In this document: in pieces, positions 5,323-40,552 of the stretch
Position numbering within the stretch: the first letter of the stretch is position 1
How the letters are laid out: every line of letters begins with the position of its first letter
Source of the DNA: Nitrospinota bacterium
GTDB taxonomy: Bacteria; UBA8248
Direction: 5' to 3'
NCBI GenBank assembly: GCA_030754595.1
Contig: JASLZZ010000109.1
Coordinates: forward strand, 1-64,000
DNA: 64,000 bases
Position numbers and translations under genes: made by a program
The notes under the pieces: model-generated
Told to the model about the DNA's origin: nothing
What the model saw: the letters and a program-made list of their open reading frames with translations, nothing else
The model's database searches: none

Positions 5323-6231
5323 ATGCCGGTTACAAAGGTGGACGGATTTTATTTTAATTCAAGCGAAGGAAGTAAAAAGCGGAGGCTCTCCCAGCGGCAC
5401 GCCGATCCCGCCAAGACACCCTGGGCGCCGATGGCCAAACCGCTTGCCGAGTGCAAAGTGACGCTGGTATCGACCGTCGGAATATTCATGAAAGGAGACG
5501 AGTCGTTCGACTATGAACGCGAGCGGCGCGAGTACATCTGGGGAGACCCCACCCACCGCGAGATTCCCCGGGGGGCGGGGCAGAACGACGTCGAATACAG
5601 CCATCTGCACATCGACGCCTCGTTTTTGAAGAAGGACCGAAACGTCGCCTGGCCCGTGGATATTTTCCTCGGCTACGAGAAAGAAGGGAAAATCGGCGCT
5701 TTGGCCGAAACCCTCTACTCCATCATGGGGTACATCCCGAACTTCAATCCGTTGGTGAAGCAGACCGCACCCAAGATGACCGCCAAGATGAAGGATGAAG
5801 GCGTCGAGGCGGCGTTCCTGTTCCCCGTCTGACCGCTCTGCGTGCGGTCCGGGGGACTGCTCCAGCGGGAGATCGAAAAGGCGGGGATTCCCACCGTATC
5901 CATCAGTAATATCCCGGAGACGACCGAGCGGGTCTGCGTCCCTCGAACGGCGTTCATCCAGTATCCCTTTGGACGGCAACTGGGCGAGGTGGATGATCGC
6001 GCGGGCCAGCGCCGGGTCTGCGATGACATGTACGATCTTCTCGAAGGAGCTAAAGCGGCGCCCAGCTACCGCCACCTACCCTACGAATGGCCCGAGCCGA
6101 CCGAGAAGACAAAATGGCAACCGGACACGCCGCCTCCGATTCACTCGTACCGGGCTAAAAACCCTGAAGGCGAGGCGCGCCTCATGAAAGAATACCGGGA
6201 CGATAAGCGAATCGAATATTCTGGGGGATAG
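5323..6231 (+). CDS. Putative selenoprotein, PrdB/GrdB (proline/glycine reductase selenoprotein B)-like, UxxC, 302 aa
   Basis: ORFs 5236-5832 and 5842-6231 are in one frame, joined by TGA 5830-5832: AAFLFPV-U-PLCVRSGGLLQREIEKAGIPTVSI; hairpin GCGGTCC-GGG-GGACTGC 11 nt downstream. Confidence 0.88.
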
Positions 6232-6307
6232 GCTTTGAGTGAAAAGCGAAAAGCCTTTCTCCGCCAAGGAAGGAAGCCTGCACGAAGAGTGAGGAGCGAG
6301 AAGCCTG
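6231..6307 (+). repeat. 7-nt-periodic repeat block, right copy
   Basis: GGCTTTGAGTGAAAAGCGAAAAGCC (6231-6255) and CTGCACGAAGAGTGAGGAGCGAG resemble the 5166-5217 block. Confidence 0.75.
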
Positions 6308-6443
6308 GACAAAAAAATGATGTCGAACATAAGTAATTGTTTTATAATAGGATAATATCGATTCCACGGGATGTTTCGAATATGACAAGCATGATCTGTG
6401 TTATTAACTTGATTAGCAAGATCAGCAAGATATACATTTACAA

Positions 6444-6708
6444 CTGGCAGGCTGAGAGGCTTGGGGTTTATCCCTTATCTGCCAGCCACGCGATCCCGAA
6501 GGGATCATGCTCTGAAAGGGGCTAAAGGGCGCAAAGGAGGTTGATGCGGGTTAAGGGCTTAATGCCCGCTTTTCCTCGCCCGTCGCTCTTTACCCCCGCT
6601 AAGCCGGGGAATGGAATTCGGGCAGTAGGTGAGACTTCCCAGAATTTCGTGGCATAAAGTCTCTCACCCGGAGAAGCGATCCCTCACCCTCTCGCTTCCT
6701 CTTTTTTT
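6444..6708 (+). ncRNA. Candidate structured non-coding RNA, family unknown
   Basis: Several complementary stems found by eye, upstream sigma70-like boxes and a downstream intrinsic terminator; no convincing CDS. Confidence 0.45.
6673..6708 (+). terminator. Rho-independent terminator
   Basis: GAAGCGA (6673-6679) / TCGCTTC (6692-6698) stem followed by T7 at 6702-6708. Confidence 0.65.
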
Positions 6709-6710
6709 GC

Positions 6711-7172
6711 CTAAACCCGGAAATTTCTTTCCTTCCAGGTCCGTACCCTTTCCAAGACCTTGTTTTCAACCACGCAAAAGGCGGTGGTCAGTTTCAACTC
6801 TCCACCTTTCGATCTCATACAGACTACAATAAATCTTTTCCCTGGCACGGGTTTCCAGGGGCTAACGTACATGTATTCATCCTGCCTGGAATATATGGCC
6901 AGAGGATACTCTATGCAGGGCCTGATTAAATTCAATTGCCGGGCTCTTTGTTGGCTGAACTTTCTCTTCCCTTTTTTCGCTTCAGAGGTTGTCAGATGTC
7001 CGAATTTTTATGCGTCAATCTTAATTTTTCATCCTGAAACGTCTGTGATTTCAGACGGAATGTTTTTCTTGAACCATTTCCTGACCTCTTTTGCTTTCCT
7101 TAGGGACAACAGTTCCGGACATTTCTTCTCGGGAAGATGGTTTGGACGAACGGATTTATGATATCTATCCAT
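6711..7172 (-). pseudogene. Disrupted gene resembling PBECR2 (Barnase/EndoU/colicin/RelE-like) nuclease domains
   Basis: One frame from ATG 7172 to TAG 6711 with internal TGA (7029-7031) and TAA (7008-7010); ...FGHLTT..KRKFSQQRARQLNLIRPCIEYP...FIVVC...LTTAF; family recognised by eye only. Confidence 0.55.
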
Positions 7173-7333
7173 TCGATTATTTTATCAGACTTGCAATTTT
7201 CCGCGCATGAAATAAAATTTTCCTCTCCATCGGGTAGATATATCTTTTGATGTCCGGTGGATCAGAACGAAAAAAGTCAGGGATTCGCCCCGGCCTTTTT
7301 GTTGAAATAAATCTCGCCTGAAATCTTACGCGG

Positions 7334-7732
7334 CTACCCCTTTCTATCCAGCGCGATCGAAACCGAGTTGATGCAGTACCTGAGCCCGGTGGGTGTGGGG
7401 CCGTCCGGGAAGACGTGACCGAGGTGCGCGGCGCAGGCGGCGCAGGTGACCTCGACGCGGGTCATGCCGTGGCTCCGATCCTCGATCTCGGTGATGCACT
7501 CCTCCGAGGCCGGCTCCCAGAAGCTGGGCCAGCCGGAACCCGAATCGAACTTGGCGTCCGACCGGTACAACGCTTCCCCGCAGCAGACGCAGATGTAGAC
7601 GCCCTCGTCCTTGCAGTCGTTGTACTTTCCCGAGTGGGGGAGCTCGGTCCCGCCCATACGCGCGACGGCGTATTGCTCGGGGGTGAGCTGGGCCCGCCAC
7701 TCCTCTTCGATCTTGGTTATTTTCGGAGGCAT
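7334..7732 (-). CDS. msrB: Peptide methionine-R-sulfoxide reductase (Cys form)
   Basis: [29 protein letters not shown], two CxxC zinc pairs. Confidence 0.95.
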
Positions 7733-7754
7733 GGAGAAGCTCCCTGATAAATGA

Positions 7755-8210
7755 TCACCCATCCTTCAACCGCCGGGTCAGCTCCCGGTCGAGGGCGGAG
7801 GCGAAGCGGTGGGTGTCGAGGGTATCCATCTCCCGGGGGCCGCCCTGGATGAGGCCGCCCGAACGAAGATCGGCCATGAGGTTGCGGGCCGAGAGGCGCT
7901 CGCCGACGTTCTCCTCGTCGAAGACTTCTCCCCTGGGGTCGATGCCCACCGCGCCGGCGCCCACGACGCGGGACGCCAGGGGGACATCGGCGGTGATCAC
8001 CACGTCCCCGGCCGAGACCGCCCCGGCGATATGGTTGTCGGCCGCATCGGAGTTATTGGGCACGACCACGGAGGAAATCCACGGCGAGTCGGGATGGCGC
8101 ATGACCTGGTTCGCGACCACAACGGCCTGGACCTCGAGGCGCTCGGCCGCCCGGAAGACGATATCCTTCACCGCCCTCGGGCAGGCGTCCGCGTCGATCC
8201 AGATTTTCAC
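7755..8210 (-). CDS. YaiI/YqxD (UPF0178) family protein
   Basis: [27 protein letters not shown]. Confidence 0.9.
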
Positions 8211-8231
8211 TTTGCCTCCGGCGGCCCGGCG

Positions 8232-8750
8232 CTACTTGTTCGCCGCCGCCATTTTCTTCCGGTGCTTGACGGCCTGGATGACATCCTGCCAGACGAGGCG
8301 GCCAAGCGGGCCCGAGCTATAGACGGAAATATTCACTTTCCCCTCGGGGCCGAGGAGGAAATTCGTCGTATGCAGATAGGGCCTTGGCTTCCCGCTCGCA
8401 TCGGGCTGATAAAGGGCGCCAGTCAGCTCCGAGATCCGGGCCTCGTTCACGCTGTAGCCCACCGGGAAGTTGACCTGGCTCGCTTCGATGCTCTTGAGGG
8501 CTTCGTCTTCGGGGTCGGTGGAAACCGCGATCACCTTGATGCCTTCCGCTTCGAGTTTTTCTCCCGCCCGGGAGAATGCCGCAAGCTGCGCGAGTCAGTA
8601 GGGTCACCAATGGCTGCGGTAAAAAAGGACGACACCCCAAGAACCCCTCAGGTCGTCGGGCAGGACGATTTTCCCACCGCCGACCTTGTCGATCTCGATT
8701 CGGGGAAACGGATCGCCCGTATCGAGTATCAGGTCGTTCACCTTCGGCAT
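8232..8750 (-). CDS. Putative double-selenocysteine peroxiredoxin-like (AhpC/TSA fold) protein, UxxU, 172 aa
   Basis: ATG 8750 with GGAGG RBS; VVLFYRSHW-TGA(8604-8606)-PY-TGA(8595-8597)-LAQLAAF continues in frame into ORF 8232-8534; paralog of the adjacent gene. Confidence 0.85.
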
Positions 8751-8858
8751 GATTGATTCCTCCAAGAAAACGGATAACCGCCAGAGCCCTTATTTTACAC
8801 GCAAAAGGGTCGGGAGCGTGAAGCCCCCGGCCCCTGTTACAAGCAGCGTGCGCGGCTG

Positions 8859-9353
8859 TTACTTGGCGGCCATATTCTTCAGGTACTGGACGACGGCGTG
8901 AACGTCCTGCCAGACGAGGCGGCCGATGGGCCCCGAACTGTAGACGCCCACGGCGACCGTTCCGTCGGGCTTTACGAGGTAGCCCGTGCTGTGGAGGATC
9001 TGACGCTTTTCCTCGTAGAAACAGCCCGTTAACTCCGAAATCGCCTTGTTGTCGATACCGTAGCCCACCGGGAAATTGAGCCCGCACTCATCGACGGTTC
9101 CTTTGGCCTGCTCCTCCGTGTCCACGGAGGCCGCGACAACCTTGATGCCTTCCTCGGCCAGTTTCGAGGTCCGGGCGAAGGCAGTCAGCTGCTGCTTGCA
9201 GTAGGGTCACCAGTGACCCCGGTAGAAAAGAACCACTCCCCAGCTGCCCGCCAGATCGCCGGGCAGGGAAATCTTCCCGCCGCCGACCTGGTCCATCTCG
9301 ATGCCCGGGAAGGGTTCCCCCGAATCGAGCATCTTTTCCGTCATACGTGGCAT
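8859..9353 (-). CDS. Putative selenoprotein, peroxiredoxin-like (AhpC/TSA fold), UxxC, 164 aa
   Basis: ATG 9353 with GGAGG RBS; VVLFYRGHW-TGA(9207-9209)-PYCKQQL continues in frame into ORF 8859-9125; matches the FYRGxWCPYC family motif. Confidence 0.9.
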
Positions 9354-9637
9354 GAATCGCCCTCCGCTGGAATAGGGGCAAGACAAGCGTACAGGACCCT
9401 CCCGTCAGCGTTTACGCCCTATTCGATTATTCCCGGAATCCCCCCGAGCGCCTTTTATACCGATATGGAAGGGCAAATTCAACGGCGGGCTCCGCGCCGC
9501 CCGGTCATCTTCCATATCCTTGAAGCCACGAATAACCGGACCGCCGAAGCGGGCTCTGCTCCCGGCGGAGGCTTGACACCGCCTCCTCCGGGCCTCTAGC
9601 ATTCGTGGACGTTTTCAGCGAATCCAGGAGAAGGCCG

Positions 9638-9910
9638 ATGGGCGAGAAAATTCCCTGCGAGTACAGCAAAATCTTCCCTTGCGAAGAATGCAAGGCCGCC
9701 GGCGGCAACTCGCGCGAAGTGGAGCTCACCGAGGACGATGCCGAGCGCTACCTACCCCGCGAGGGCCAGACGAACATGATCGTCCCCAAGGATTGTCCCG
9801 TCGCACCGAAGAGCAGCGTTATCCGCTACGGACCCGATTATTTCGTGCTCAAGGCGGGCCGGGTGCTGCGGAAGGATTTCGTTCGCTCTTTGCCGAACTA
9901 CAAACCATAA
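9638..9910 (+). CDS. Small Cys-containing hypothetical protein
   Basis: AGGAG RBS, ATG 9638, CEY...CEEC...C pattern. Confidence 0.6.
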   Translation: MGEKIPCEYSKIFPCEECKAAGGNSREVELTEDDAERYLPREGQTNMIVPKDCPVAPKSSVIRYGPDYFVLKAGRVLRKDFVRSLPNYKP

Positions 9911-10058
9911 ATTTTCCGAGTTTCATCGCCCCTCCCATCCGCCGCACCGCCGTTTTGATCGGCGCTCTCCCCCGGCAGTGAACCTCCCTTTACGCTACAA
10001 TCGTTCACGCCATAAAATATCGAGACGACAAAAATCGCTCAGGCGAGAGGAGGGGAAA

Positions 10059-10418
10059 ATGCCGGCCAGGAAATTCAACTGGGACGAAATACCCGCTGAA
10101 CAGGTCACAGATAAATTCAGCCGTAAAATGATCGTCGGGGTGAACGAGATGCTCTGTTGGCTTGAACTCAAGCCGGGCTGCTTGGTCCCTCTCCACGCCC
10201 ACGAAAACGAACAAATCTCCCACGTCCTCAAGGGCCGCCTTCGGTTCGTCGTGGACGGAGAGATGATCGAGGTGGGACCCGGCGAGACTCTTCTCATCCC
10301 GCCGAATGCGCCGCACTCGGCCGAGGTCCTGGGAGATGAAACCGTCTACGACTACGATATTTTCAGCCCCATCCGAAGCGATTGGCTCGACGGGACAGAC
10401 GACTACCTGAAAAAGTAA
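10059..10418 (+). CDS. Cupin domain protein
   Basis: PLHAHENEQ and IPPNAPHSA cupin motifs; DIFSPIR. Confidence 0.9.
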   Translation: MPARKFNWDEIPAEQVTDKFSRKMIVGVNEMLCWLELKPGCLVPLHAHENEQISHVLKGRLRFVVDGEMIEVGPGETLLIPPNAPHSAEVLGDETVYDYDIFSPIRSDWLDGTDDYLKK

Positions 10419-10466
10419 CCCCTGCCGTCCGGGACGATAAAGCCCATATTGATAAGGGGGATTTCG

Positions 10467-11135
10467 ATGCGAACCGACAATAAACTTCTTCGGGGAGCGG
10501 CCGCTTTTCTAATCATGGCGGTCCTGTGGGGGTGCGCGGCCTCCCGGGTTCAGCGCCGGATCAGCCTCCGGTACGAGGGTCCGAAGCCCGCGGCCTTGCT
10601 TGATCCCTCCGTTCAGGCGTTTCCGGAGATCATCGTCGCGCCCTTTGCGGACCTTCGAAGAGAGAAAGGATCGTTCGGAACCTACGATTGGGGAAACCTG
10701 TCGGTGAACTATATCCCCGGCCCGGAATCGGTGTCCCAGGGGTTTACGCGATTAGTGAGAGAGTTTCTATCGAGCGCGGGAATGCGCCCCGTCCCCGGGG
10801 AGTGGAACGGCCAGCTCGACACCCTTCCGAACATAAACGCGGAACACGCCATATTCGGCGAGATCGAGCGGCTCGATTTTTCCGGCCGGGGTCGATTTTA
10901 CGAGGCCAAAAACCGGGGGACCATCCGGGTGATCATTAAATGGGGAAACCGGGGCGCCCGGAGAATCATCACCCGGACGGTTGAAGTCGCGCCGGACAGG
11001 CGGGAGTTTCACCTCTTCACCACCAACTACAACCATGTCTCGGGAATGGCGTCTCTCATCCGGAAAACGGTGAGCCGGGCGGTTCGCGAAAGCATGACGA
11101 GGCTGTTCCGCTCGTCCCCCAGCAGAGGAAAATAG
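10467..11135 (+). CDS. Putative lipoprotein
   Basis: Hydrophobic signal ending in lipobox LWGC. Confidence 0.65.
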   Translation: MRTDNKLLRGAAAFLIMAVLWGCAASRVQRRISLRYEGPKPAALLDPSVQAFPEIIVAPFADLRREKGSFGTYDWGNLSVNYIPGPESVSQGFTRLVREFLSSAGMRPVPGEWNGQLDTLPNINAEHAIFGEIERLDFSGRGRFYEAKNRGTIRVIIKWGNRGARRIITRTVEVAPDRREFHLFTTNYNHVSGMASLIRKTVSRAVRESMTRLFRSSPSRGK

Positions 11136-11221
11136 CGCGGGAAAATAAAATACTCCGCCCGGCCGGAGCGGGAAACGGCCCGGCCAAGGAACGGTGCGCC
11201 GAGGCGTCCGCTCCCGGCTGT

Positions 11222-12130
11222 CTACTTCTTCATCGTTTCGCCTTCGGGCGCCTTCCCACTCGAACCCTGCAAGAATCTCAGGAACTCGCTGTCCGAAGGG
11301 AGGAGGAGCGTCGTCTTGTCCTTCAGCGAGGCCCTGTACACTTCCAGGCTCTTGAGGAACGCGTAAAACTCGGTATCCTGACCGAACGCCTGCGCCGTGA
11401 GCTCGATGTTTTTCGCGTCGCCCACACCTTTAATATTTTGTTCTTTCTCGTAGGCCTCGGCCAGCAGGATATCGCGCTCGCGGTTCGTCTCGGCCCGGAT
11501 CTTCTGGGCCTCCTCTTTTCCCTCGGAGCGGTACTGGCGCGCGATCCGGTTACGCTCGGCCTGCATGCGGCCGAATATCGCTTTCAGGTTTTCCTGGGGA
11601 AGGTCGGCGCGCTTGAGGCGAACGTCCACAATCTCGATCCCGTACTTGTTCGCTTTGACGTTGCTTGTCTTCGTCACCCGCTCCATCAGCGCGGCCCGAT
11701 CGTGGGCGACGATTTGCACCAGCTCTTTCCGGCCGAGTTCTTCCCGCAATTCACTGTAAATGATGTCGTCCAGGCGCGCCTGAGCCCCCACTTCATTCCG
11801 AACCGTCCGGAGGAATTTGAGGGGATCGATGATTCGCCAACGGGAGAAGTTATCGATAACCAACGACTTTTTGTCCTGGGTGATGATCTCGGTGGGATTC
11901 GAATCGTACTCGAGGAGCCGCTTGTCGAAAAAAGTAAGCTGCTCCAAAAACGGCGTCCGGAAAGCAAGTCCGGCCTCCCTGAGAACCCGGACCGGTTTTC
12001 CCAGGCGGGTCACGACGACCTGTTGGTCTTCGCGAACCGTGAAAAAGATCGAATTTGTCAGGATCACGGCCAACACCGCGACGACCAGGAGCCCGATGAA
12101 TTTTTTGGGAACCGCAGGCGCTTTCGTCAT
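11222..12130 (-). CDS. hflC: Protease modulator HflC
   Basis: SPFH domain, DKKSLVID, RMQAERNRIA, EFYAFLKSLEVY; overlaps the hflK stop (ATGA). Confidence 0.95.
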   Translation of the reverse strand: MTKAPAVPKKFIGLLVVAVLAVILTNSIFFTVREDQQVVVTRLGKPVRVLREAGLAFRTPFLEQLTFFDKRLLEYDSNPTEIITQDKKSLVIDNFSRWRIIDPLKFLRTVRNEVGAQARLDDIIYSELREELGRKELVQIVAHDRAALMERVTKTSNVKANKYGIEIVDVRLKRADLPQENLKAIFGRMQAERNRIARQYRSEGKEEAQKIRAETNRERDILLAEAYEKEQNIKGVGDAKNIELTAQAFGQDTEFYAFLKSLEVYRASLKDKTTLLLPSDSEFLRFLQGSSGKAPEGETMKK

Positions 12131-13167
12131 CGTTTCAGGTCCTTCAATGCATCTCCCCTGAGCGAGAGAATCGGTAAAATTCCGGAATTGTTTTTCTTGT
12201 CCATTATGATCTTGTCCACGGTCGGCATAACCTCTTTCATCATTTCAAGGTAAAGACGCTTTCTGGTGATGTAGGGCGCCTTTTTATATTCCCGAAGCGT
12301 CGCCAAAAAACGGTCGGCGTCACCCCGGGCCTGCCTGATTTTCGTTTCCCGGTAGGCCTCGGCCTGACGAAGGACCTGGGCCGCCTTACCCCTCGCCTCG
12401 GGAATCACTTGATTTCGGTAGCCTTGCGATTCGTTGATCAGGCGGTTTTTATCCTCGCGCGCGCTGGCGACATCCTTGAAGGACTGAATCACCTCCTTGG
12501 GCGGGGTGACGTCCTGAAGCTGGACCGCCACCACGCTGAGCCCGCTTTCGTATTTATTCAGAACCTTCTGAATCTCGGCCATCGTCTCGACCTGGATAAC
12601 GCCCTTCCCGGTCGTCAGCGCCTCGTTGATCGGCTTGCTGCCCACCACCTGGCGTATGGCCGCTTCGGCCGCGTGACCCACGGTCATCTGCGCATTGCGC
12701 ACATTAAAGAGATATTTCACGGCGTCGGAAATCCGGTACTGGACGATGACGTCCAAATCCACCATGTTTTCGTCGCCGGTCAACATCAGCGACTCGTGCG
12801 GCTTGTCCAAATACCTTGCCGGAGGTCCAGGATCGATGGTTCTGAAGCCGATCTCAATCCGCTTGACTTCCGTGACCTTGGGGGTGAATACCGTTTCGAA
12901 CGGATAGGGGATGTGATAGTTCAGGCCGGATAAAGCCACCCGGGCGACGGCTCCGTACCTGAGAACAATACCCTGCTCGTCGGGCCCCACGATATAAATG
13001 CCCGACAACAGCCACAAGGCGAGAGCGACAACGACAAAAAACACCCCGGGAAGCTTCATGTTCGGCATCCGGAATTCCGGTATCCGGATTTGCGGTGGTC
13101 CGGTCCCGCCCCCGCCTCCGCCACCACCTTGTTTTCTAGCTTTAAAATCATCCCAATCCATCGGCAT
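12127..13167 (-). CDS. hflK: Protease modulator HflK
   Basis: MLTGDEN, SFKDVASARED, ITRKRLYLE; Gly-rich N-terminus. Confidence 0.95.
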   Translation of the reverse strand: MPMDWDDFKARKQGGGGGGGGTGPPQIRIPEFRMPNMKLPGVFFVVVALALWLLSGIYIVGPDEQGIVLRYGAVARVALSGLNYHIPYPFETVFTPKVTEVKRIEIGFRTIDPGPPARYLDKPHESLMLTGDENMVDLDVIVQYRISDAVKYLFNVRNAQMTVGHAAEAAIRQVVGSKPINEALTTGKGVIQVETMAEIQKVLNKYESGLSVVAVQLQDVTPPKEVIQSFKDVASAREDKNRLINESQGYRNQVIPEARGKAAQVLRQAEAYRETKIRQARGDADRFLATLREYKKAPYITRKRLYLEMMKEVMPTVDKIIMDKKNNSGILPILSLRGDALKDLKR

Positions 13168-13266
13168 GAACACTTCTCCTCGCGGCCTTTTTTAATATGC
13201 GGAAATCCCGCAATTTTCTTTCGCCTCAATTCAGGGTATGAACCGTAAGGGGGTTGAATATTGAAG

Positions 13267-15244: not shown

Positions 15245-15671
15245 CTCTCTCTTGAAACCAAGACACCCTATATCAAACTCTGTATTGTTGGTTTTATATT
15301 GATACTTATATACTTACGCCGACTATCGTTCATTTATGCCTATTTTATGTCCCAAAGATAAAATAATACGGACACTACCAGCCCACAAAAACATCGTACC
15401 TAAATAATTTAAAATCAAACAAATAAAAAAAACTTTGGGCTTATTGTATTATTTATATTACTTTGCAAGCAAGTGTCTCTTTCTGTATCTATTTGATATG
15501 CTATCGGTTAACAATCCGCCCGCCTTGAACTGTTGACAACCATCGGTTTTTATTGTAGTTATAGAGCTTTTGGAGCCGTATCTTTCCCAAGTGCTCAGGA
15601 TCAAACAAAGAGCATGTGAACCGAGGTGGTACCCAAAACCCACCCGATAGACCTTGAGCGATTAACTCTTT

Positions 15672-17774: not shown

Positions 17775-17787
17775 GAGGCAATTAACG

Positions 17788-33987: not shown

Positions 33988-34292
33988 CGTGGTCTCCTTT
34001 AAATCTGGTGCGGTTTATCGAACGATGTGCGATTTCCCTCAATCCACCGGGTTTCATTCTTCAGGCTCCGCTCTTCGGTCAGAATGAGCGGCGGCGCTAT
34101 CCCTGGCTTCCGCTCCCGAGCTTGCGGATGAGGGCGAGGAGCGTCTCCTTCTCCTCCGTGGTGAGATTCTCCATCATTTCGGCGTTGATCTCCAAAACGT
34201 CCGCGTAGCTGCTCACCAAACCCGCCTCGCATGCAAACCACCCCCCGGAGGGAGGGAGGTGCGATCAGCGGAAATCAGCGGGGCAGGGGGGA

Positions 34293-35663
34293 TTATCCCT
34301 CGGCCTGGAACTTTTTAAGCCCGGTGTCGATGGCGGAGACGATTGTCGCGCCCTGCTCTTCGGTCAATATGAGCGGCGGGGAAATGGTGAGCGTGTTCGA
34401 GGGCCCGTCGGCGATGCCGGCGTTCTTTCCGATGAGGACCCCCTCCTCCTTGACGTAGGACAGGACCTTCGCCGTCCCCTCGGTCGGAAGCGGGTCGCCG
34501 TTCTCCTCGATGAGTTCGACGCCCCAGATGAGCCCCACCCCCCGGACATCCCCCACACAGGGAATGTCTTTCAGATGGGCCAGCGCCTCGCCCAGGCCTT
34601 TTCCGACATCCCGCGCGTTTTGCGTCAGATTCTCCTCCAGCAGAATTTCGAGATTTTTGTTCGCAGCGGCGCACGATGCCGGGTGGCCTCCGTAGGTGTT
34701 GATTTGCTGGAAGCCCGCCTCGCCCTCGGCGTTGAGCACCTGGAACACTTCGTCCGTCACCGCCGTCGCGCCGATGGGCAGGTATCCGCTACTGAGCCCC
34801 TTGGCCATCGTCATCACGTCGGGCTTCACGCCGTAAAGGTCCGAGGCGAAGAGCTCGCCCGTGCGGCCAAAGCCGGTGATCACTTCGTCGATGATCATGA
34901 GCACCCCGTAGCGGGTGCAGACTTCCCGCATTTTCTTCAGATAGTCCGCCGGGGGGGGGATCACACCCCCGCCGCCGATAATCGGCTCGGCGATGAAGGC
35001 GGCGACGGTATCGGCGCCCTGGTAGCGGATCACGGCGTCGAGATCTTCGGCCAGCCGCTCGGCGAGGTCGAACTCGCTCGAACATCCGCTGCGGTAGAAA
35101 TAGGGCGCCTGGAGGTGGACTACGCCCGGAAGGAGGGGCTCGAAGGGCGCGCGGCGGGCGGTCTGGCCGGTCAGGCTGGCGCCGCCGATGGTGCCGCCGT
35201 GATAGCCCTGATACCGGGCGATGATCTTGTAGCGCCCGCCCTGTGTCCGGCCCCAGGCCCGGGCGATTTTGATGGCGGTGTCCACGGCCTCGGAGCCCGA
35301 GTTCACGAACCAGATGCGATCGAGGTCGCCGGGCAGAATGTCTCCGAGCTGGTCGGCGAGCCGAGCCGCCGGGAGGTTGATCTGGCTTAGCGGGTAGTAG
35401 GGAAGTTCGAGTAGCTGACGATAGACCGCCTCGGCGACTTCCTTGCGCCCGTAGCCGATGTTGACGCACCAAAGGCCCGCCATCGCGTCGAGGTATTCCC
35501 GGCCCTCGCCGTCGGTGACGGTGCAGCCGTCGGCCTTGACGATGACGCCGAGCGGGTTCTCGTCGAGCGTGTTGTGATTGAGAAACGGGTGCCAGACGTG
35601 GTCCTTGTCGAGGTCGCGGATTTTCTGAATGTCCTCGCCCACTGCCGCGATTTCCGAATTCAT
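34293..35663 (-). CDS. Class III PLP-dependent aminotransferase
   Basis: DAMAGLWCVNIGYG, SGSEAVD, DEVITGFGRTG, MAKGLSSGY. Confidence 0.93.
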   Translation of the reverse strand: MNSEIAAVGEDIQKIRDLDKDHVWHPFLNHNTLDENPLGVIVKADGCTVTDGEGREYLDAMAGLWCVNIGYGRKEVAEAVYRQLLELPYYPLSQINLPAARLADQLGDILPGDLDRIWFVNSGSEAVDTAIKIARAWGRTQGGRYKIIARYQGYHGGTIGGASLTGQTARRAPFEPLLPGVVHLQAPYFYRSGCSSEFDLAERLAEDLDAVIRYQGADTVAAFIAEPIIGGGGVIPPPADYLKKMREVCTRYGVLMIIDEVITGFGRTGELFASDLYGVKPDVMTMAKGLSSGYLPIGATAVTDEVFQVLNAEGEAGFQQINTYGGHPASCAAANKNLEILLEENLTQNARDVGKGLGEALAHLKDIPCVGDVRGVGLIWGVELIEENGDPLPTEGTAKVLSYVKEEGVLIGKNAGIADGPSNTLTISPPLILTEEQGATIVSAIDTGLKKFQAEG

Positions 35664-35712
35664 GGTTTTCTCTCCTTGAAGCACCGGGGCTGTTCCCTCG
35701 AAACCGCTTCGC

Positions 35713-36708
35713 TTACAAAATAGTATATTTCAGCCTTTCCGCCTTAATCTCGTATCTCTGGCGACCGATCTTCGAAATCTCGCCCTCTATGATATCACCC
35801 GGCTTCAGGAATTTCCCCCACGAGGCGGCGTTGCCGGCGGGCGAGCCCGTCGCGATGATGTCTCCGGGGCGAAGCGTCGCGATGGTCGAGAGGTAGGCGA
35901 CCTGCTCGTCCACCTTCCAGATCATATCACCCGTCGAGGCATTCTGGCGAAGCTCGCCGTTCACCCACAACCGGAGCCGGAGCTTGTGGGGGTCCGTTTT
36001 TTCATCGTTCAAAAGAATATAGGGCCCTGTCGGGGCGAAACCATCGGGCCCCTTCATCGCGTACCAGTCGATGAAGCGTTTATTGTCGCCCACACTCAGA
36101 TTTCCGCGATCGCTCATATCGTTGATGAGCGTGTATCCGCCGACGTGATCCATCGCCTTCCCGGCCGGGATGTTCCGCCCGCCGCGACCGATGACGATAC
36201 CGAGCTCGAGCTCGTAGTCGAGTCTTTTCACCGAGCGGGAAACGACCACCGGATCGTAGGGGCCGTTGATGCAGGTGGCGGGCTTGATGAAACAATAAAG
36301 GGGGAGCTCCTCCTTGAAATCGTTGATCTTCGTCCTGGCCATCTCGGCGGCATGGGCGACATAGTTCCGCGCCATGCAAAAAAGCGTCACCTCCGACACC
36401 GGCGGGAGAATCTCGACGCTCTCCGGGTCGTGAACAACGGGAAGGCCGTCGAAGGCGAGCGGTTGTTTTTTTCGCTTGAGCGCGCGGAGGGCCTTGATGG
36501 CGCTATCGGCGATCAGGCGGGTGGTCTCGGAATCCTCGAGGAGTTCCTCGCAGGTGGGCGCGACGATCTCCTCGGCGGCCTCGGTGGCCTCGGCCGGATC
36601 GGCGTCCCTGAGCGAGAGAGCGAAAGCAAGGGTCAGGTCGGCGATCCGTTCGCCGAACAGGATCCCGACGCGGGGGTCGCCCCCCAGGCTGAAAGTGCAA
36701 ATGCGCAT
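35713..36708 (-). CDS. Fumarylacetoacetate hydrolase family protein
   Basis: NYVAHAAE, DYELELG, NDMSDR, PGDIIATGSP. Confidence 0.92.
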   Translation of the reverse strand: MRICTFSLGGDPRVGILFGERIADLTLAFALSLRDADPAEATEAAEEIVAPTCEELLEDSETTRLIADSAIKALRALKRKKQPLAFDGLPVVHDPESVEILPPVSEVTLFCMARNYVAHAAEMARTKINDFKEELPLYCFIKPATCINGPYDPVVVSRSVKRLDYELELGIVIGRGGRNIPAGKAMDHVGGYTLINDMSDRGNLSVGDNKRFIDWYAMKGPDGFAPTGPYILLNDEKTDPHKLRLRLWVNGELRQNASTGDMIWKVDEQVAYLSTIATLRPGDIIATGSPAGNAASWGKFLKPGDIIEGEISKIGRQRYEIKAERLKYTIL

Positions 36709-36910
36709 GAACCGAATCTCCCAGGTAACTGTCCTATCGGAAACTTCCTTTGCCGGTGGAACGGGGCATCATACCACCACAGGCGCGGCCCTCGTCGTCG
36801 CCGGGCTGATCGTGCTCGCCCTCTCGAAATAACCCTCTCGAATTAACCCCCTTAAATGAAATCAGTCCCCATTTGGCATCATAAGATCCTAAATCAGGAT
36901 TAGAAAAAAT

Positions 36911-38143
36911 CTAAATTACACCTTTCTTGTTCAGCCTATCGATCTCTTCCGACCCCAGCCCGAGCACGTTGCCGTAGATTTCATCGTTGTGCTCGCCGAT
37001 GAGCGGGGCGGGATGCTCGTAGCCGCCGGGTGATTTTTCCAGCTTGAACGGGAAGCCCTGGGCATGAACACCCGGAACCGCGCCGAGGCGGGGATGCGGA
37101 AGCTCGCCGATCATCCCCCGCTCGCGGAGGTGGGGCCAGGCGAGAATGTCCCGAATGTTGCGGACCGGCCCGCAAATCACCCCGCCCTCCCGCAGACGGC
37201 GGACGGCCTCCCCGGTATCGCGCTCCTTTGTCCAGGCCACGATGATTTCATCGATCTCCTCGTTGTTCTCGAGGCGTCCGGTCATGTCGGCGTAGCGCTC
37301 ATCGTCGATCAGATCATCGCGTCCGATGGCCCTGAGAAGATCGCGCCAGTGGATGTCGGTGCCCGTACAGATGACGAGCCAACCGTCATTCGCCGGGTAG
37401 GAGTTGAACGGGGAGAGCCGCATGATGCGGTTGCCCATCCGCTCGGGGAGGCCGAGTTCTTCGTAGCAGTCCATCGGCTCATCGAAAATCAGGGAGAACA
37501 TACAGTCCGCCATCGAAATATCGACGAACTGGCCCTCTCCCGTGCGCTCGCGGTGAAAGAGCGCCGTCATGATGCCGCCGAAGGCGAAAGTGCCACTTAG
37601 GCTGTCGGCCAGCGCCGAGCCCGCCTTGGTAGGCGGTCCGTCCGGAAATCCGGTCAGGTCCATCAGTCCGGACGCTGCCTGGATTACCGCATCGTAGCCC
37701 TTGAGGCCCGCGTCCGGTCCGGTGGCGCCGTATCCCGAGATAGTGCAGTAGATGAGCCTGGGCCGGCGCTCTTTCAGGGAGGGATAGTCGATGCCGAGGC
37801 GTTTCGTCACACCCGGCCCGAAGTTTTCGACGAGGATGTCGGACTCGTCCACAAGGCGGAGGAAAATCTCGCGCCCGCGCGGTTCCTTGATGTTCAGGGT
37901 GACGGACTTTTTGTTTCGTGCGCGCTTGAGGTAGGCGATACTGATGTCGTCTTCAGTCTGCTTTTGAAACGAGATTCCCTTGGAGCCGACGAAGGGCGGG
38001 CTGTCGGCGACCGGGTCCTTCGCTCCCGGATTGTTGATGCGGATCACCTCGGCCCCCAGGCCGGCGAGAAACAGCGTCGCCTGCGGGCCGGCGAGATATT
38101 GCGTCAGGTCGAGAACCCGGATGCCTTCAAGTGGTTTTGACAT
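36911..38143 (-). CDS. CaiB/BaiF family III CoA-transferase
   Basis: LEGIRVLDLT, RNKKSVTLN, ENFGPG, GYDAVIQAASG. Confidence 0.93.
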   Translation of the reverse strand: MSKPLEGIRVLDLTQYLAGPQATLFLAGLGAEVIRINNPGAKDPVADSPPFVGSKGISFQKQTEDDISIAYLKRARNKKSVTLNIKEPRGREIFLRLVDESDILVENFGPGVTKRLGIDYPSLKERRPRLIYCTISGYGATGPDAGLKGYDAVIQAASGLMDLTGFPDGPPTKAGSALADSLSGTFAFGGIMTALFHRERTGEGQFVDISMADCMFSLIFDEPMDCYEELGLPERMGNRIMRLSPFNSYPANDGWLVICTGTDIHWRDLLRAIGRDDLIDDERYADMTGRLENNEEIDEIIVAWTKERDTGEAVRRLREGGVICGPVRNIRDILAWPHLRERGMIGELPHPRLGAVPGVHAQGFPFKLEKSPGGYEHPAPLIGEHNDEIYGNVLGLGSEEIDRLNKKGVI

Positions 38144-38366
38144 GAGGCCATTCTACCGGCCGGCGGGATATTTTTCACCTGGCGGCGCCATCCAAACCTC
38201 GGCTCCACTACCGGCTCCGCTATCGCCCTTCGAACCATTCCCGCAGGGTCCGCCCATCGGCCAGCCTTTCCCGCCCGATTGGCGCTCCGGCCAGTTTTTC
38301 CATCTGAGACCGCCCATCGACCACCCTTTTCTTTTTCCGGCCCGGCGCTTTGGCCATTTTTTTCAT

Positions 38367-38873
38367 TCAGGCCGGCGGTCCGGCCAATCTTTTCCGCCGG
38401 CTTGGGGCTTTGGCCAGTCTTTTCCGCATGGCGGCGGCTCTTGCCAGGACGGAGGAGGCGTTCTTTCCGTTCGCTCCATGAACATAAGCCAATCGGCTCA
38501 GGGTTTTTGCGATATGGGAATGATCCGGCCCTAGATTTTTTTCATATATGGCCAACGCCGTCTTCAATACACGCTCCGCCTTATGGAATTTATTCTTGCG
38601 AAAATACACAGGGGCCATCTCAAAGAGCGCATGGCCGACTTCCGTATGCCCGGCTCCAAGGACTGTCGTGCGGATTTTCAGGCTCCGCTTATATAGCGCT
38701 TCGGCTTTATCGAACTTACGCTGATGCCGCAAGGAAGTTACCCGGGCGCTGAGTTTTTTCGCCTCCGCGAGCGTTTCTCCGGCCTGGGCAGGTGCAACCG
38801 TCCCGGAGATAGAAAAACCCGAAATAACGGCGGCAAGAACAAAAAGGGCGAAAATCTTCGATGCTGTCCGCAT
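38367..38873 (-). CDS. Secreted tetratricopeptide-repeat protein
   Basis: Signal peptide; AEALYKRSLKI, YEKNLGPDH repeats. Confidence 0.82.
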   Translation of the reverse strand: MRTASKIFALFVLAAVISGFSISGTVAPAQAGETLAEAKKLSARVTSLRHQRKFDKAEALYKRSLKIRTTVLGAGHTEVGHALFEMAPVYFRKNKFHKAERVLKTALAIYEKNLGPDHSHIAKTLSRLAYVHGANGKNASSVLARAAAMRKRLAKAPSRRKRLAGPPA

Positions 38874-39109
38874 AGTTACTCCTCTGTGAGCTCAAAATTG
38901 AATCGCAAACGCGCTTTCCCGGCCGCGCAACAAGTTACAGCCGGAAGAATGTGATTACCGACAAACGAAACGCCCCCACTGTGAACCGAATCGCAGTTCA
39001 AGATCAACAATAATTTAATCTACGGAATTACCGCAGGAATTATCATTCTCCGTTGCGTCTCTATAAATGAAAAATCCACCAAAAAATTTCATTTCCGGCG
39101 GTCCGGAAA

Positions 39110-39742
39110 CTACCCCTTCTTGGCCGCTTTATTTTTCTTGGAGCGCTTGGCCAGCCTGGTCCGCATCGCCCGGGCCTCCTTGAGGAGCGGGGCGGCCTCC
39201 TCCCACAAACCGATCAACTCATAGACGCTGGCCTGGCGTTTCAGGGTGTCGGCGATGAAGGCATGGTCCAGGCCCAGATTCTTCTCGTAGATAGCGCGCG
39301 CCCGTTTAAGAAGCTTGGTCGCTTTGGCGAACTGCCCCAGGTTCCAGAAGGAGGGCGCCATTTTGTATAGTGTGTGGGCGACTTCGATATGGCCGGGGCC
39401 GGCTGTCCTCTCGAGGGTCGACAGCCTCTTCCAGAAAAGGGCGCCGGCCTTCTCGAATCGGCGCGTCGCCTGGTAGATGGTGGCCAGAGCGTCCTGGCTT
39501 TCGAGCACCTGAGCATGATCGGGCTTGAGGGATTTTTCGCGGTAGGCCAGGGCCTTCCTCGCCAGCGGGAGCGCTTTTGTGTACCTCCTCGAACGAATGA
39601 GTTCTTTCACCTGCTTATTGAGTTTGTTTGCCTTTGAGAGGGGGCCGTTGATGACAAGCTTCTCGCCCTCCCCGCAGGAGGAAAGAACCGGCAAGGCCGC
39701 GGACAATAAAAAAATCGCGAGTTTCCTTGATGTAAACCGCAT
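39110..39742 (-). CDS. Tetratricopeptide-repeat lipoprotein, paralog of the neighbour
   Basis: Lipobox LSSC; ALPLARKAL, YEKNLGLDH repeats. Confidence 0.85.
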   Translation of the reverse strand: MRFTSRKLAIFLLSAALPVLSSCGEGEKLVINGPLSKANKLNKQVKELIRSRRYTKALPLARKALAYREKSLKPDHAQVLESQDALATIYQATRRFEKAGALFWKRLSTLERTAGPGHIEVAHTLYKMAPSFWNLGQFAKATKLLKRARAIYEKNLGLDHAFIADTLKRQASVYELIGLWEEAAPLLKEARAMRTRLAKRSKKNKAAKKG

Positions 39743-40000
39743 CGCTCAAGCCCCTGAAATTGGCAGAAAGCTTCCGGTGTGGGCGGCAACCGATGCCCAC
39801 CCCTCCCAAATTTATTCAAATCCAGGGGCGCATGCGTTATGGATTTGTAAGGGACTTGTAAAATATCAATTAAATTGAAGCCGGACGGGCCGTTGAGGCG
39901 AAATTTATCTTTTATAATCTTCAAGGATTTTAGAATTTTAAGTACGCCGAATAACGGGTGACGGCCTCTGACACGGCCCGGCTCGGAGCCCAACTCGGGG

Positions 40001-40552
40001 CTACGGTTTTCCCGTCAGGTTTCGCTTCACCTGGGGCGCAGCGGCGGCGGCGCGGACCGCGATCTCATCGTCCGAGATGGTGCTCAAAGGGTGCTCGATT
40101 ACAACCGGATCGATGTCCTCCATCCCGAGCGCGGCGCGCTGGACATGGGCCTCGTGCAGAAAGGTCTCGGTGACGATCACCGCTGTAGGGACGCCGAGTT
40201 GTTCGAGGTATACGCCGTCGTGCATACAGCACGATGTGCACGAGCCTCAATCGCCGATGGCGGTGACGACGACATCGCTCTCGGCGGCGATTCGGCCGAT
40301 TAACTCGGGCGCGGCGTTTTTCGAAAAACTCTCCTTTTTATAGAACGTCACCTCGCCCATCTCCTCCTCGGCCGCGAGAAGAGAGAGCGTCTTTTCTAGA
40401 AACCGCCTGCCGTTCCACTTTGTGTTGTCGAGGACGCCTACCCTGAGCCCTTCGAGAGAACCCGCCCTGGCAGCGATGGGACGCGCCTCGGCCTCGACCG
40501 CGCCGCGCGGGTCGTAGACTCTTTGTCCCGGGGTGTTCATCAAAGTGTTCAT
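40001..40552 (-). CDS. UGSC family selenoprotein, 183 aa
   Basis: AIGD-TGA(40247-40249)-GSCTSCCMHD joins ORFs 40247-40552 and 40001-40225 in frame; AAGGAGG RBS; hairpin TCGTGC-TGTAT-GCACGA 12 nt downstream. Confidence 0.92.

What the first reader, a model, noticed from the sequence alone, without database searches (positions are those of the whole stretch)
5323..40552. Dense hidden selenoproteome: six genes (seven TGA codons) recoded at redox-Cys positions in ~35 kb
Seen: in-frame TGA at 5830, 8595, 8604, 9207, 31218, 33742 and 40247. Each falls where the family has a catalytic Cys (UxxC, UxxU, CxxU, UGSC), with protein similarity continuing on both sides. Established: bacterial Sec is encoded by UGA plus a downstream SECIS, and PrdB/GrdB, Prx-like, AhpD-like and UGSC selenoprotein families are known. 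Inference: this organism is unusually selenoprotein-rich and standard annotation will fragment many of its genes.
Basis: partly seen in the sequence, partly recalled or inferred. Interest (0 to 1): 0.85.

Follow-up and report, generated by a model that had tools for sequence, protein, structure and literature searches.

The report
Six real selenoprotein genes, known families
Seven in-frame TGA codons in six redox genes of a marine Nitrospinota-like bacterium almost certainly encode selenocysteine, as in known selenoprotein families of a lineage already listed as selenium-rich, so ordinary gene callers cut these genes in two.

Summary
They sit in UxxC, UxxU, CxxU and UGSC motifs of one PrdB-like, two AhpC/TSA (Prx-like), two AhpD/CMD and one UGSC-family gene.

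The TGA is kept at the same column in 108 of 108 orthologous copies from other genomes. The second PrxA position alternates between TGA (12) and Cys (8) in 20 loci.

The genome has tRNA-Sec, selA, selB and a Sec-containing selD. TGA is otherwise its commonest stop. Conserved G-loop hairpins follow five of the six Sec sites. Two independent metagenome assemblies keep the four TGAs that were laid.

Genome-wide I count 47 family-supported selenoprotein genes in 3.55 Mb, plus one conserved CoA-transferase candidate.

Relatives are Nitrospinota-labelled marine MAGs. A 2026 database paper already ranks this lineage in the top ten selenoproteomes, with 48-54 genes. All six families are already listed as selenoproteins.

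Verdict: a real finding, correctly read, but a new member of a known kind.

The parts
5323..6231 (+). PrdB-like selenoprotein gene (302 aa), motif V-U-P-L-C
   Evidence: PF07355 34.1 bits; TIGR04483 121 bits, below the 300 cut-off, stretch 32-256 spans U170. TGA kept in 20 of 20 loci.
5830..5832 (+). Sec codon (UGA) of the PrdB-like gene
   Evidence: two independent assemblies show no other letter here.
5845..5859 (+). SECIS-like hairpin: 6-bp stem with GGN triloop, 22-24 nt from the UGA
   Evidence: all 6 pairs unchanged in 20 of 20 sequences; near-zero synonymous diversity in these codons. No covariation, so this is conservation only.
8232..8765 (-). Prx-like (AhpC/TSA) thiol:disulfide oxidoreductase with two Sec, motif W-U-P-Y-U (PrxA)
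   Evidence: AhpC-TSA 72.8 bits. 20 of 36 family orthologues have 2 TGA and 16 have 1 TGA.
8604..8606 (-). First Sec codon of PrxA (residue 54)
   Evidence: TGA in 20 of 20 loci. Kept in the assemblies of runs X3 and X6.
8595..8597 (-). Second Sec codon of PrxA (residue 57), aligned with the peroxidatic Cys of 1-Cys Prx 7kuu
   Evidence: TGA in 12 and TGC/TGT (Cys) in 8 of 20 loci.
8559..8576 (-). SECIS-like hairpin: 7-bp stem with GGGC loop, 38-41 nt from UGA1 and 29-32 nt from UGA2
   Evidence: stem identical in 18 of 18 distinct sequences, one loop change; synonymous diversity 0.110 against a gene mean of 0.340, rank 6 of 163 windows.
8859..9353 (-). Tandem paralogue, Prx-like selenoprotein with motif W-U-P-Y-C (PrxB); start codon uncertain (9353 or 9344)
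   Evidence: AhpC-TSA 69.2 bits; 56% identical to PrxA. The tandem pair is found across the family.
9207..9209 (-). Sec codon of PrxB
   Evidence: 20 of 20 loci; kept in independent assemblies.
9189..9201 (-). Weak candidate hairpin after the PrxB UGA: 4 bp with a 5-nt loop, loop 13-17 nt from the UGA
   Evidence: the closing C-G is U-A in 5 sequences and is broken in others. Hairpin score 5.5, below the control median range. The SECIS of this gene is not settled.
30903..31460 (-). AhpD/CMD-family selenoprotein, motif C-P-H-U
   Evidence: CMD 45.7 bits; TIGR00778 37.6 bits, over the 27.8 cut-off. TGA in 14 of 14 loci.
31218..31220 (-). Sec codon, aligned with the second Cys of CxxC in PA0269 (2o4d)
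31182..31206 (-). SECIS-like hairpin: 11-bp stem, loop GUC 26-28 nt from the UGA
   Evidence: fold z = -2.24, 3 of 200 shuffles as good; the more distant family f4 has a different 7-bp hairpin (loop AGGU) at the same place.
33334..33987 (-). Second AhpD/CMD-family selenoprotein, motif C-N-Y-U; the TGA at 33334-33336 is its stop
   Evidence: CMD 35.9 bits. An orthologue with 1 TGA in 43 of 51 genomes of the class.
33742..33744 (-). Sec codon
   Evidence: 20 of 20 loci.
33711..33729 (-). SECIS-like hairpin: 8-bp stem with GGC triloop, 24-26 nt from the UGA
   Evidence: 0 broken cells. One pair covaries (U-A in 13, C-G in 7 of 20).
40001..40552 (-). UGSC-family selenoprotein, motif D-U-G-S-C
   Evidence: PF24696 197.8 bits; NF041046 158 bits, over the 125 cut-off. 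20 of 20 loci keep the TGA.
40247..40249 (-). Sec codon
40218..40234 (-). SECIS-like hairpin: 6-bp stem, loop UGUAU 22-26 nt from the UGA
   Evidence: identical in 20 of 20 sequences; synonymous diversity 0.184 against 0.373, rank 3 of 168 windows.
40581..41678 (-). 366-aa gene of no known family directly upstream of UGSC; a conserved partner
   Evidence: upstream of UGSC in 20 of 20 loci; paralogues lie beside the other UGSC copies on C84 and C116; no family or PDB sequence match; one related Atlas cluster carries the UGSC domain in 16% of members.

Best explanation
The seven TGAs are selenocysteine codons. Shown: the genome encodes the whole bacterial recoding set (tRNA-Sec, SelA, SelB, SelD). 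Inferred: each UGA is read by SelB-GTP-Sec-tRNA(Sec), which is held over the ribosome by a short G-loop hairpin (bacterial SECIS) about 20-40 nt downstream inside the coding sequence.

Inferred from family knowledge, the products are redox proteins in which Sec replaces a catalytic Cys.
- PrxA and PrxB are two cytoplasmic thioredoxin-fold Prx-like oxidoreductases. The N-terminal Sec of W-U-P-Y-(U/C) attacks the substrate. The residue three positions on resolves it as a diselenide (PrxA) or a selenenylsulfide (PrxB).
- The two AhpD-like proteins carry CxxU.
- The UGSC protein probably works with the conserved 366-aa protein encoded just upstream.
- The PrdB-like protein carries UxxC and its substrate is unknown.

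In PrxA the two UGAs lie 9 nt apart and are followed by one invariant hairpin. That hairpin is equally invariant in orthologues with a single UGA, so one element most likely serves both codons. This last point is not shown.
For: Machinery: tRNA-Sec; selA 552 bits, selB 364 bits, selD 345 bits, all over their cut-offs.

Coding runs on both sides of each TGA inside one domain.

Conservation: TGA at the same column in 108 of 108 copies from other genomes. All six genes carry a TGA across a class of 51 genomes.

Cys/Sec exchange: the second PrxA position is U in 12 and C in 8 of 20 loci. PDB homologues have Cys at the aligned columns.

Hairpins: conserved in orthologues. A compensatory pair in AhpD2. 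Suppressed synonymous change in PrxA and UGSC. Genome-wide, 35 of 47 Sec-UGAs score 8 or more against 598 of 3000 random sense codons, Mann-Whitney p = 5e-14.

TGA is otherwise a stop: 404 of 1054 long ORFs end in it.

Independent assemblies from two other studies keep TGA at 5830, 8595, 8604 and 9207.

The families are listed selenoprotein families (passages and tables read).
Against: There is no protein-level evidence: no 75Se labelling and no mass spectrometry.

Single-sequence folding is no better than shuffles for 4 of 6 sites (z = -0.46, +0.54, -0.30, +0.12).

The PrxB hairpin is weak (score 5.5). Synonymous-site suppression is absent for PrxB, AhpD1 and AhpD2 windows.

Rfam reported no SECIS family.

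For the PrdB-like protein I found no clean full-length Cys homologue. The two ~300-aa Acidobacteria homologues place Cys one column off.

The hairpin controls were sense codons in long ORFs, not matched genes.
Confidence: 0.93

Rival explanations
1. The TGAs are ordinary stops. The genes would then be split genes or pseudogenes, and the downstream halves would be unexpressed or separately initiated.
For: Gene callers treat them this way: 64 of 67 public homologues of the PrdB-like protein are N-terminal pieces. This genome does hold real disrupted genes: a Usp gene with an in-frame TAA/TAG, and four genome-specific in-frame TGAs.
Against: The TGA and both flanks are conserved in 108 of 108 copies from other genomes. 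Single domains span the codon. The catalytic motif itself would be cut. The Sec machinery and downstream hairpins are present.
Confidence: 0.02
2. The organism reads TGA as a standard amino acid (Trp or Gly, as in NCBI tables 4 or 25), or reads it through by near-cognate tRNA without selenium.
For: Three genome-specific TGAs elsewhere align with Gly codons of orthologues or with a family's consensus Gly.
Against: TGA ends 404 of 1054 long ORFs, more than TAG or TAA. The only tRNA with anticodon UCA among the 45 found is tRNA-Sec. The seven positions align with Cys, not Trp or Gly. The Gly-aligned TGAs are not conserved in any orthologue.
Confidence: 0.02
3. The TGAs are sequencing or assembly errors of a metagenome-assembled genome, for example TGC or TGT misread.
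For: The genome is a 138-contig assembly with 6.4% estimated contamination. It holds several in-frame TGAs that no relative shares.
Against: The same TGAs occur in up to 50 other genomes of the class. They also occur in contigs from two independent studies that differ from the window at only 4 other places in 4.1 kb.
Confidence: 0.01

Closest known systems
Prx-like thiol:disulfide oxidoreductase selenoproteins (pfam00578, UxxC/UxxU), as listed in the 2022 review PMC9312934 (table passages read)
   Same: AhpC/TSA domain over the cut-off. Sec in the W-U-x-x-(C/U) motif at the Prx active-site position. The UxxU variant is already listed for this family.
   Different: All NCBIfam peroxiredoxin and ResA equivalogs score below their cut-offs. 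Here the gene is a conserved tandem pair, and the second position switches between Sec and Cys among close species. I did not see that described in the passages read.
SelL / 'Prx-like 2' UxxU proteins (GOS paper PMC2398784, passage read; the name SelL and its diselenide chemistry are recalled, not read)
   Same: Two Sec residues separated by two residues in a thioredoxin-fold redox motif.
   Different: NCBIfam SelL_rel_redox scores 28.3 bits against a cut-off of 120, so PrxA is not a member. A separate truncated SelL-related gene lies on contig C43.
AhpD-like (COG2128/YciW) and distant AhpD (COG0599) CxxU selenoproteins
   Same: CMD fold with Sec at the second position of CxxC.
   Different: The YciW-related (seleno)protein equivalog NF053654 is not reached: 101.5 and 62.7 bits against 310. 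This genome holds 14 such genes.
UGSC family (PF24696, NF041046); the 'UGSC-containing protein' of the GOS study
   Same: Member by both curated cut-offs, with the UGSC motif. GOS reports fusion to an unknown domain.
   Different: Here the likely partner is a separate upstream 366-aa gene, conserved in 20 of 20 loci. Its fold could not be assigned.
D-proline reductase selenoprotein PrdB (TIGR04483) and the abundant marine 'PrdB' group of GOS
   Same: Alignment over nearly the whole PrdB model (positions 18-234 of 238), with Sec in UxxC. Public sources name the fragments PrdB.
   Different: 121 bits against a cut-off of 300. No PrdA was found (but the control was uninformative). There are three stand-alone paralogues in the genome. 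True GrdA and GrdB genes lie elsewhere.
Selenoprotein-rich bacteria. Syntrophobacter fumaroxidans has 39 genes. BSepDB top ten: Olavius Delta-1 symbiont 63; three Nitrospinota-labelled MAGs of GTDB UBA8248 with 54, 50 and 48 (table passage read)
   Same: About 47-48 selenoprotein genes, dominated by thioredoxin-fold and AhpD-like redox families. Relatives' records carry the same labels, including the MAG with 54.
   Different: This genome is small (3.55 Mb), so the density is about 13 per Mb. My count is a hand-filtered lower-to-middle estimate, not a bSECISearch or BSepDB pipeline count.

Membership tests
Bacterial Sec-decoding trait | tRNA-Sec (anticodon UCA), SelA, SelB and SelD in the genome | tested here: met
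   tRNA-Sec at C102:3896-3992. selA 551.8 bits (cut-off 267.9), selB 364.5 (242.25), selD 345 (125) with 1 in-frame TGA.
Bacterial Sec-decoding trait | Stem-loop with a G-containing apical loop about 16-37 nt downstream of the UGA (bSECIS criteria, recalled from Zhang and Gladyshev 2005) | tested here: met
   Met for 5 of the 6 genes. For PrxA the loop lies 38-41 nt from UGA1 and 29-32 nt from UGA2. PrxB has only a weak 4-bp hairpin. Genome-wide enrichment is 35 of 47 against 598 of 3000. bSECISearch itself was not run.
UGSC family (PF24696 / NF041046) | Score over the curated cut-offs and the U/C-G-S-C motif | tested here: met
   197.8 bits against 25. 158 bits against 125. Motif D-U-G-S-C.
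AhpD / CMD family (PF02627; TIGR00778 core domain) | Domain over the cut-off, with a CxxC-type motif at the AhpD active site | tested here: met
   Gene 30903-31460: CMD 45.7 bits against 23, TIGR00778 37.6 against 27.8, and CPHU aligned to CAYC of 2o4d. Gene 33334-33987: CMD 35.9 against 23, but TIGR00778 only 18.9.
YciW-related (seleno)protein equivalog NF053654 | Whole-protein score of 310 bits or more | tested here: not met
   101.5 and 62.7 bits.
AhpC/TSA superfamily (PF00578) | Domain over the cut-off, with the redox residue at the peroxidatic-Cys column | tested here: met
   72.8 and 69.2 bits against 26. U57 of PrxA aligns with the Cys of the TPVC motif in 7kuu, and U54 with its Thr.
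Named peroxiredoxin / ResA / SelL-related NCBIfam models | Curated cut-off of any equivalog or subfamily model | tested here: not met
   Best scores: 39.7 against 211 (PRK13189), 28.5 against 170 (ResA), 28.3 against 120 (SelL_rel_redox).
D-proline reductase PrdB (TIGR04483) | Equivalog score of 300 bits or more | tested here: not met
   121.3 bits. The subfamily model TIGR01918 gives 59.9 against 65.45. Pfam GRDB gives 34.1 against 22, but only profile positions 215-344.
D-proline reductase PrdB (TIGR04483) | Partner PrdA (pyruvoyl proprotein) encoded in the genome | tested here: inconclusive
   TIGR04480 gave 0 matches in the genome, but it also rang in none of the 14 control genomes. The neighbours are a cyclase-family gene and an ORF-poor stretch.

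The most novel reading that the evidence does not exclude
This lineage may extend Sec use beyond the catalogued families and may show unusual decoding.

(a) A glutaconate-CoA-transferase-subunit-A-like protein (G000:C122:11719-12570) carries a TGA conserved in 35 orthologues. Its tandem paralogue has Cys at that column, and a 7-bp GGC-triloop hairpin follows the UGA. No CoA-transferase appears in the 2022 review's text and table (0 hits for five terms) or in the BSepDB main text (0 hits for 'CoA').

(b) The Prx-like UxxU protein would form a diselenide. Its resolving Sec flips to Cys repeatedly within genera: 20 orthologues have two TGAs and 16 have one. Two UGAs 9 nt apart would be decoded from one invariant SECIS.
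Probability: 0.3. Interest if true: 0.5.

Novelty: new member of a known kind. Interest (0 to 1): 0.33.

Why it matters
Gene catalogues of marine Nitrospinota-like bacteria cut dozens of redox genes at their active site. In one search, 64 of 67 public homologues of one gene were halves. This hides much of the organisms' oxidative-stress and thiol/selenol chemistry and understates their need for selenium.

Near-identical DNA occurs in seawater and marine metagenomes of 11 studies, so the organism is widespread.

About 47-48 selenoprotein genes in 3.55 Mb places it among the richest selenoproteomes tabulated. It sits outside the Deltaproteobacteria, Clostridia and Synergistetes that the 2022 review names as the rich groups.

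The natural UxxU/UxxC series in one orthologue is a ready-made comparison of diselenide and selenenylsulfide chemistry.

Tried and rejected
- Folding each downstream 70-79 nt alone did not beat shuffles for 4 of 6 sites.
- Rfam at gathering thresholds found only rRNA and tRNA, with no SECIS family.
- Synonymous-site suppression was not seen for the PrxB, AhpD1 and AhpD2 windows.
- A wide protein search for full-length Cys forms of the PrdB-like protein gave only two distant ~300-aa Acidobacteria proteins with Cys one column off, plus one garbled 302-aa entry. I did not repeat this for UGSC.
- The PrdA search was uninformative because its control did not ring.
- The UGSC partner has no match in Pfam, NCBIfam or PDB sequences. 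Its AF2 model has pLDDT 77. Foldseek found nothing at E <= 0.001, with TM about 0.25 to class I fumarate hydratase. VIA-align's best was Z 7.4 over 93 residues, within the chance range. The fold is therefore unassigned.
- RNA-library contigs hold only small shares of the region. One covers 8264-8475 inside PrxA. That does not show expression.
- Complex prediction for UGSC with its partner was not run, because the tool takes proteins by code 11 only and UGSC needs TGA=U.
- Genome-wide candidates rejected as two adjacent genes: C50:53414, C114:22005, C41:28468, C79:65875, C13:30514, C104:1434, C35:10722.
- Rejected as genome-specific nonsense changes or errors: cytochrome c C35:1907 (orthologues have Arg or Lys), DLH C98:27910 and DUF1932 C30:24604 (orthologues have Gly).
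- Judged unlikely from the residue usual at the aligned place, recalled and not aligned here, and not tested in relatives: two AKRs (C39:73193, C98:34470), an MBL (C111:24777) and a DHH protein (C46:4452).
- Left open: VOC C131:36064 (orthologues have Cys), C114:3638, C28:366, C64:5545.
- Of the 160 crude candidates, only 59, picked by eye for redox-like context, went to family searches. The other 101 were not examined. Sec sites very close to a protein end were excluded by the filter.

Full report
**Observation**

Reading TGA as U opens six frames that ordinary translation cuts.
- A 302-aa gene at 5323-6231 (+) with TGA at 5830-5832, motif VUPLC.
- A 177-aa gene at 8232-8765 (-) with two TGAs, at 8604-8606 and 8595-8597, motif HWUPYU. 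The DNA reads cat tgg tga ccc tac tga.
- Its tandem paralogue at 8859-9353 (-) with TGA at 9207-9209, motif HWUPYC.
- A 185-aa gene at 30903-31460 (-) with TGA at 31218-31220, motif CPHU.
- A 217-aa gene at 33334-33987 (-) with TGA at 33742-33744, motif CNYU. A second TGA is its real stop.
- A 183-aa gene at 40001-40552 (-) with TGA at 40247-40249, motif DUGSC.

Pfam places them in GRDB (34.1 bits, C-terminal part of the profile only), AhpC-TSA (72.8 and 69.2), CMD (45.7 and 35.9) and UGSC (197.8). The matched stretches cross the TGA, except for GRDB, whose profile ends just before the Sec position. NCBIfam adds an alignment to nearly the whole PrdB model (121 bits, below its 300 cut-off, residues 32-256 across U170). 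It also gives UGSC_fam over its cut-off, at 158 against 125.

**Is it more than chance?**

The genome is 3.55 Mb in 138 contigs, 96.9% complete with 6.4% contamination. It belongs to a class with only 51 species genomes in the collection.

Searching that class with each protein found orthologues carrying an in-frame TGA almost everywhere. The hit counts were 47, 45, 43, 29 and 43 of 51 genomes.

I mapped the Sec column onto the best 14-20 loci per gene. TGA stands at the same column in 114 of 114 gene copies, or 108 of 108 without the window's own copies. These loci are the top-scoring ones the tool returned, not all matches.

The second PrxA position is the informative exception. It is TGA in 12 loci and Cys in 8 of 20. 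Across all 36 family orthologues, 20 have two TGAs and 16 have one. That is a direct Sec/Cys exchange at a redox position.

Solved structures agree. U57 of PrxA aligns with the peroxidatic Cys of the 1-Cys peroxiredoxin 7kuu, and U54 aligns with its Thr. U81 of the first AhpD-like protein aligns with the second Cys of CAYC in PA0269, 2o4d.

Negative controls show the test can fail. Four other in-frame TGAs in this genome lie inside a cytochrome c, a dienelactone hydrolase, a DUF1932 protein and a VOC protein. None of their listed orthologues has a stop. The orthologues I aligned have Arg/Lys, Gly, Gly and Cys there.

**Machinery and code**

ARAGORN finds one tRNA-Sec (UCA) among 45 tRNAs. selA (552 bits), selB (364 bits) and selD (345 bits, itself with one in-frame TGA) pass their curated cut-offs. 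TGA is the commonest stop of long ORFs, at 404 of 1054. A TGA-sense code is therefore excluded.

**SECIS-like elements**

Folding single sequences was weak evidence. Only PrxB (z = -2.22) and the first AhpD gene (z = -2.24) beat shuffles, and Rfam reported nothing. Comparison across orthologues is more telling.
- PrxA has a 7-bp hairpin with a GGGC loop whose stem is identical in 18 of 18 distinct sequences. It includes orthologues with a single UGA. Synonymous diversity after the UGAs is 0.110 against a gene mean of 0.340, rank 6 of 163 windows.
- UGSC has an invariant 6-bp hairpin. Diversity is 0.184 against 0.373, rank 3 of 168.
- The second AhpD gene has an 8-bp hairpin with a GGC triloop and one covarying pair (U-A in 13, C-G in 7). 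None of its 160 cells is broken.
- The PrdB-like gene has an invariant 6-bp hairpin with a GGN triloop.
- The first AhpD gene has an 11-bp hairpin in its own family. The distant family f4 has a different 7-bp hairpin at the same place.
- PrxB has only a 4-bp candidate, so its element is unresolved.

Across the genome, 35 of 47 Sec-UGAs have a hairpin score of 8 or more, against 598 of 3000 random sense codons (p = 5e-14). The loops (GGC, GGTC, GTC, GTT) resemble the canonical SelD example printed in the BSepDB paper.

**Independent DNA**

Near-identical sequence occurs in seawater and marine metagenome runs of 11 studies. Contigs of two runs from studies other than the possible source cover 5300-9400 completely. 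They differ from the window only at 6435, 6743, 6846 and 7720. The TGAs at 5830, 8595, 8604 and 9207 therefore stand.

**The whole genome**

A codon-usage filter gave 160 in-frame-TGA candidates. I sent 59 of them, picked by eye for redox-like context, to Pfam and NCBIfam.

Together with SelD and the six window genes, 47 genes have a family match that spans or abuts the Sec position.
- 14 AhpD-like.
- 6 Prx/Trx-like, one of them truncated.
- 4 DsbA-like.
- 3 each of PrdB-like, UGSC and OsmC-like.
- 2 each of deiodinase-like, glutaredoxin-like and GrdB.
- 1 each of GrdA, SelW-like, DUF3179, MGMT, rhodanese, PTP-like, C_GCAxxG_C_C and SelD.

A 48th, a CoA-transferase subunit, is supported by conservation (below). 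The contig that holds the window carries 7 of these genes. The seventh is just outside the window, at contig position 65571-66125.

**Who is it, and is this known?**

Records of relatives are titled Nitrospinota, Nitrospinaceae or Nitrospinae MAGs.

The BSepDB paper (PMC13326102; table passage read) lists three such MAGs among the ten largest bacterial selenoproteomes, with 54, 50 and 48 genes. It files them under GTDB UBA8248. One of them appears among my related loci. That this window's class is UBA8248 is my inference.

It is the only paper in the library that joins 'Nitrospin*' with 'selenoprotein'. Five papers join it with 'selenocysteine' (listings only, apart from BSepDB).

The 2022 review (PMC9312934, passages and table) lists Prx-like thiol:disulfide oxidoreductases with UxxC/UxxU, AhpD-like CxxU and UGSC-containing proteins. 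The GOS paper (PMC2398784, passages and Table 2) lists PrdB (UxxC), UGSC and AhpD-like among the most abundant marine selenoproteins. It also notes UxxU in a Prx-like family.

So the families, the motifs and the lineage's richness are all in print. What is new is this locus and genome, plus some details: the tandem pair, the Sec/Cys toggling, and the UGSC partner.

**Annotation**

Of 67 database homologues of the PrdB-like protein, 64 are 166-204 aa and cover at most 56% of it. They are gene calls ended at the TGA. Sources name them PrdB or selenoprotein B family.

**Mechanism**

Shown: the recoding parts and the conserved hairpins.

Inferred: SelB-dependent Sec insertion at each UGA, and redox catalysis with Sec as the attacking residue of UxxC/UxxU or the second residue of CxxU.

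PrxA, PrxB, a DUF188 gene and MsrB (SelR domain, 166 bits) lie together on one strand. This suggests an oxidative-repair cluster, but adjacency is the only support.

UGSC is always preceded by a 366-aa protein of no known family (20 of 20 loci). Paralogues of that protein lie beside the other UGSC copies, and a related cluster carries a UGSC domain in 16% of members. I read them as a functional pair. The fold of the partner could not be assigned.

**Verdict**

It is a correct catch of a known phenomenon in a lineage already tabulated as selenoprotein-rich.

Noticed in passing
G000:C122:11719-12570 (locus L171 / L194), outside the window: A glutaconate-CoA-transferase-subunit-A-like gene has an in-frame TGA conserved in 35 orthologues of the family. 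The tandem paralogue has Cys at that column, and a 7-bp GGC-triloop hairpin follows the UGA. In solved relatives (5mzw, 1poi) the column is Gly or Ser. No CoA-transferase was found in the review's text and table or in the BSepDB main text.
   Followed up: partly
window 40581-41678 (-) and 41745-42191 (-): A 366-aa gene with no family, PDB or clear fold match sits directly upstream of UGSC in 20 of 20 orthologous loci. Paralogues flank the other UGSC copies on C84 and C116. A MarR-family regulator lies upstream of both.
   Followed up: partly
G000:C109:65571-66125 (same contig, just past the window end): A seventh selenoprotein gene on this contig: AhpD/CMD family, motif C-P-F-U, TGA at contig position 65811. 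It is conserved with a TGA in relatives.
   Followed up: partly
window 32739-33329 (-): A paralogue of the CNYU AhpD-like gene lies immediately downstream. It has lost both redox residues (D..F in place of C..U) and has no in-frame stop. The pair is conserved in relatives.
   Followed up: partly
G000 contigs C35:1907, C98:27910, C30:24604, C131:36064, C39:73193: These in-frame TGAs occur only in this genome, inside otherwise conserved genes. For the first four, orthologues have Arg/Lys (cytochrome c), Gly GGA (DLH, DUF1932) and Cys TGC (VOC). For the AKR on C39, whose orthologues I did not search, the usual residue at that place is Gly as I recall it. They may be errors, recent nonsense changes or, for the VOC gene, a very recent Cys-to-Sec change.
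   Followed up: partly
window 52657-53166 (-): A universal stress protein gene, one of three in a row, is interrupted by an in-frame TAA or TAG between its two Usp halves.
   Followed up: partly
window 6232-7333: A 1.1-kb ORF-poor stretch of lower GC (0.39-0.53, against about 0.60) lies between the PrdB-like gene and MsrB. There is no Rfam match at E <= 0.1. Two short contigs from an RNA library lie on 6446-6623 and 6832-6993.
   Followed up: partly
G000:C18:13623-16869 and C66:19782-21086: The genome holds a full glycine-reductase-type set: GrdA (208 bits) and two full-length GrdB-type proteins (TIGR01918 at 399 and 486 bits), each with Sec at the expected place. This is unexpected beside the Nitrospinota/NOB labels of the relatives.
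   Followed up: no
G000:C66:8610-11996 and C33:18276-21665 (L215, L216): Two open frames of about 1,160 aa give weak, multi-segment matches to NarG. This is compatible with a periplasmic nitrite-oxidoreductase-type alpha subunit. It was not tested further.
   Followed up: no
G000:C43:13011-13271: A SelL-related redox gene (62 bits, profile positions 2-54 of 173) with motif G-U-I-F-C ends at a TAA/TAG 17 codons after the Sec codon. It is probably a broken copy.
   Followed up: no
window 268-2015 and 21907-27379: An integrase-core (rve) gene lies next to tRNA-Ser(CGA). A complete rRNA operon (16S, tRNA-Ile, tRNA-Ala, 23S, 5S) lies on the minus strand.
   Followed up: no
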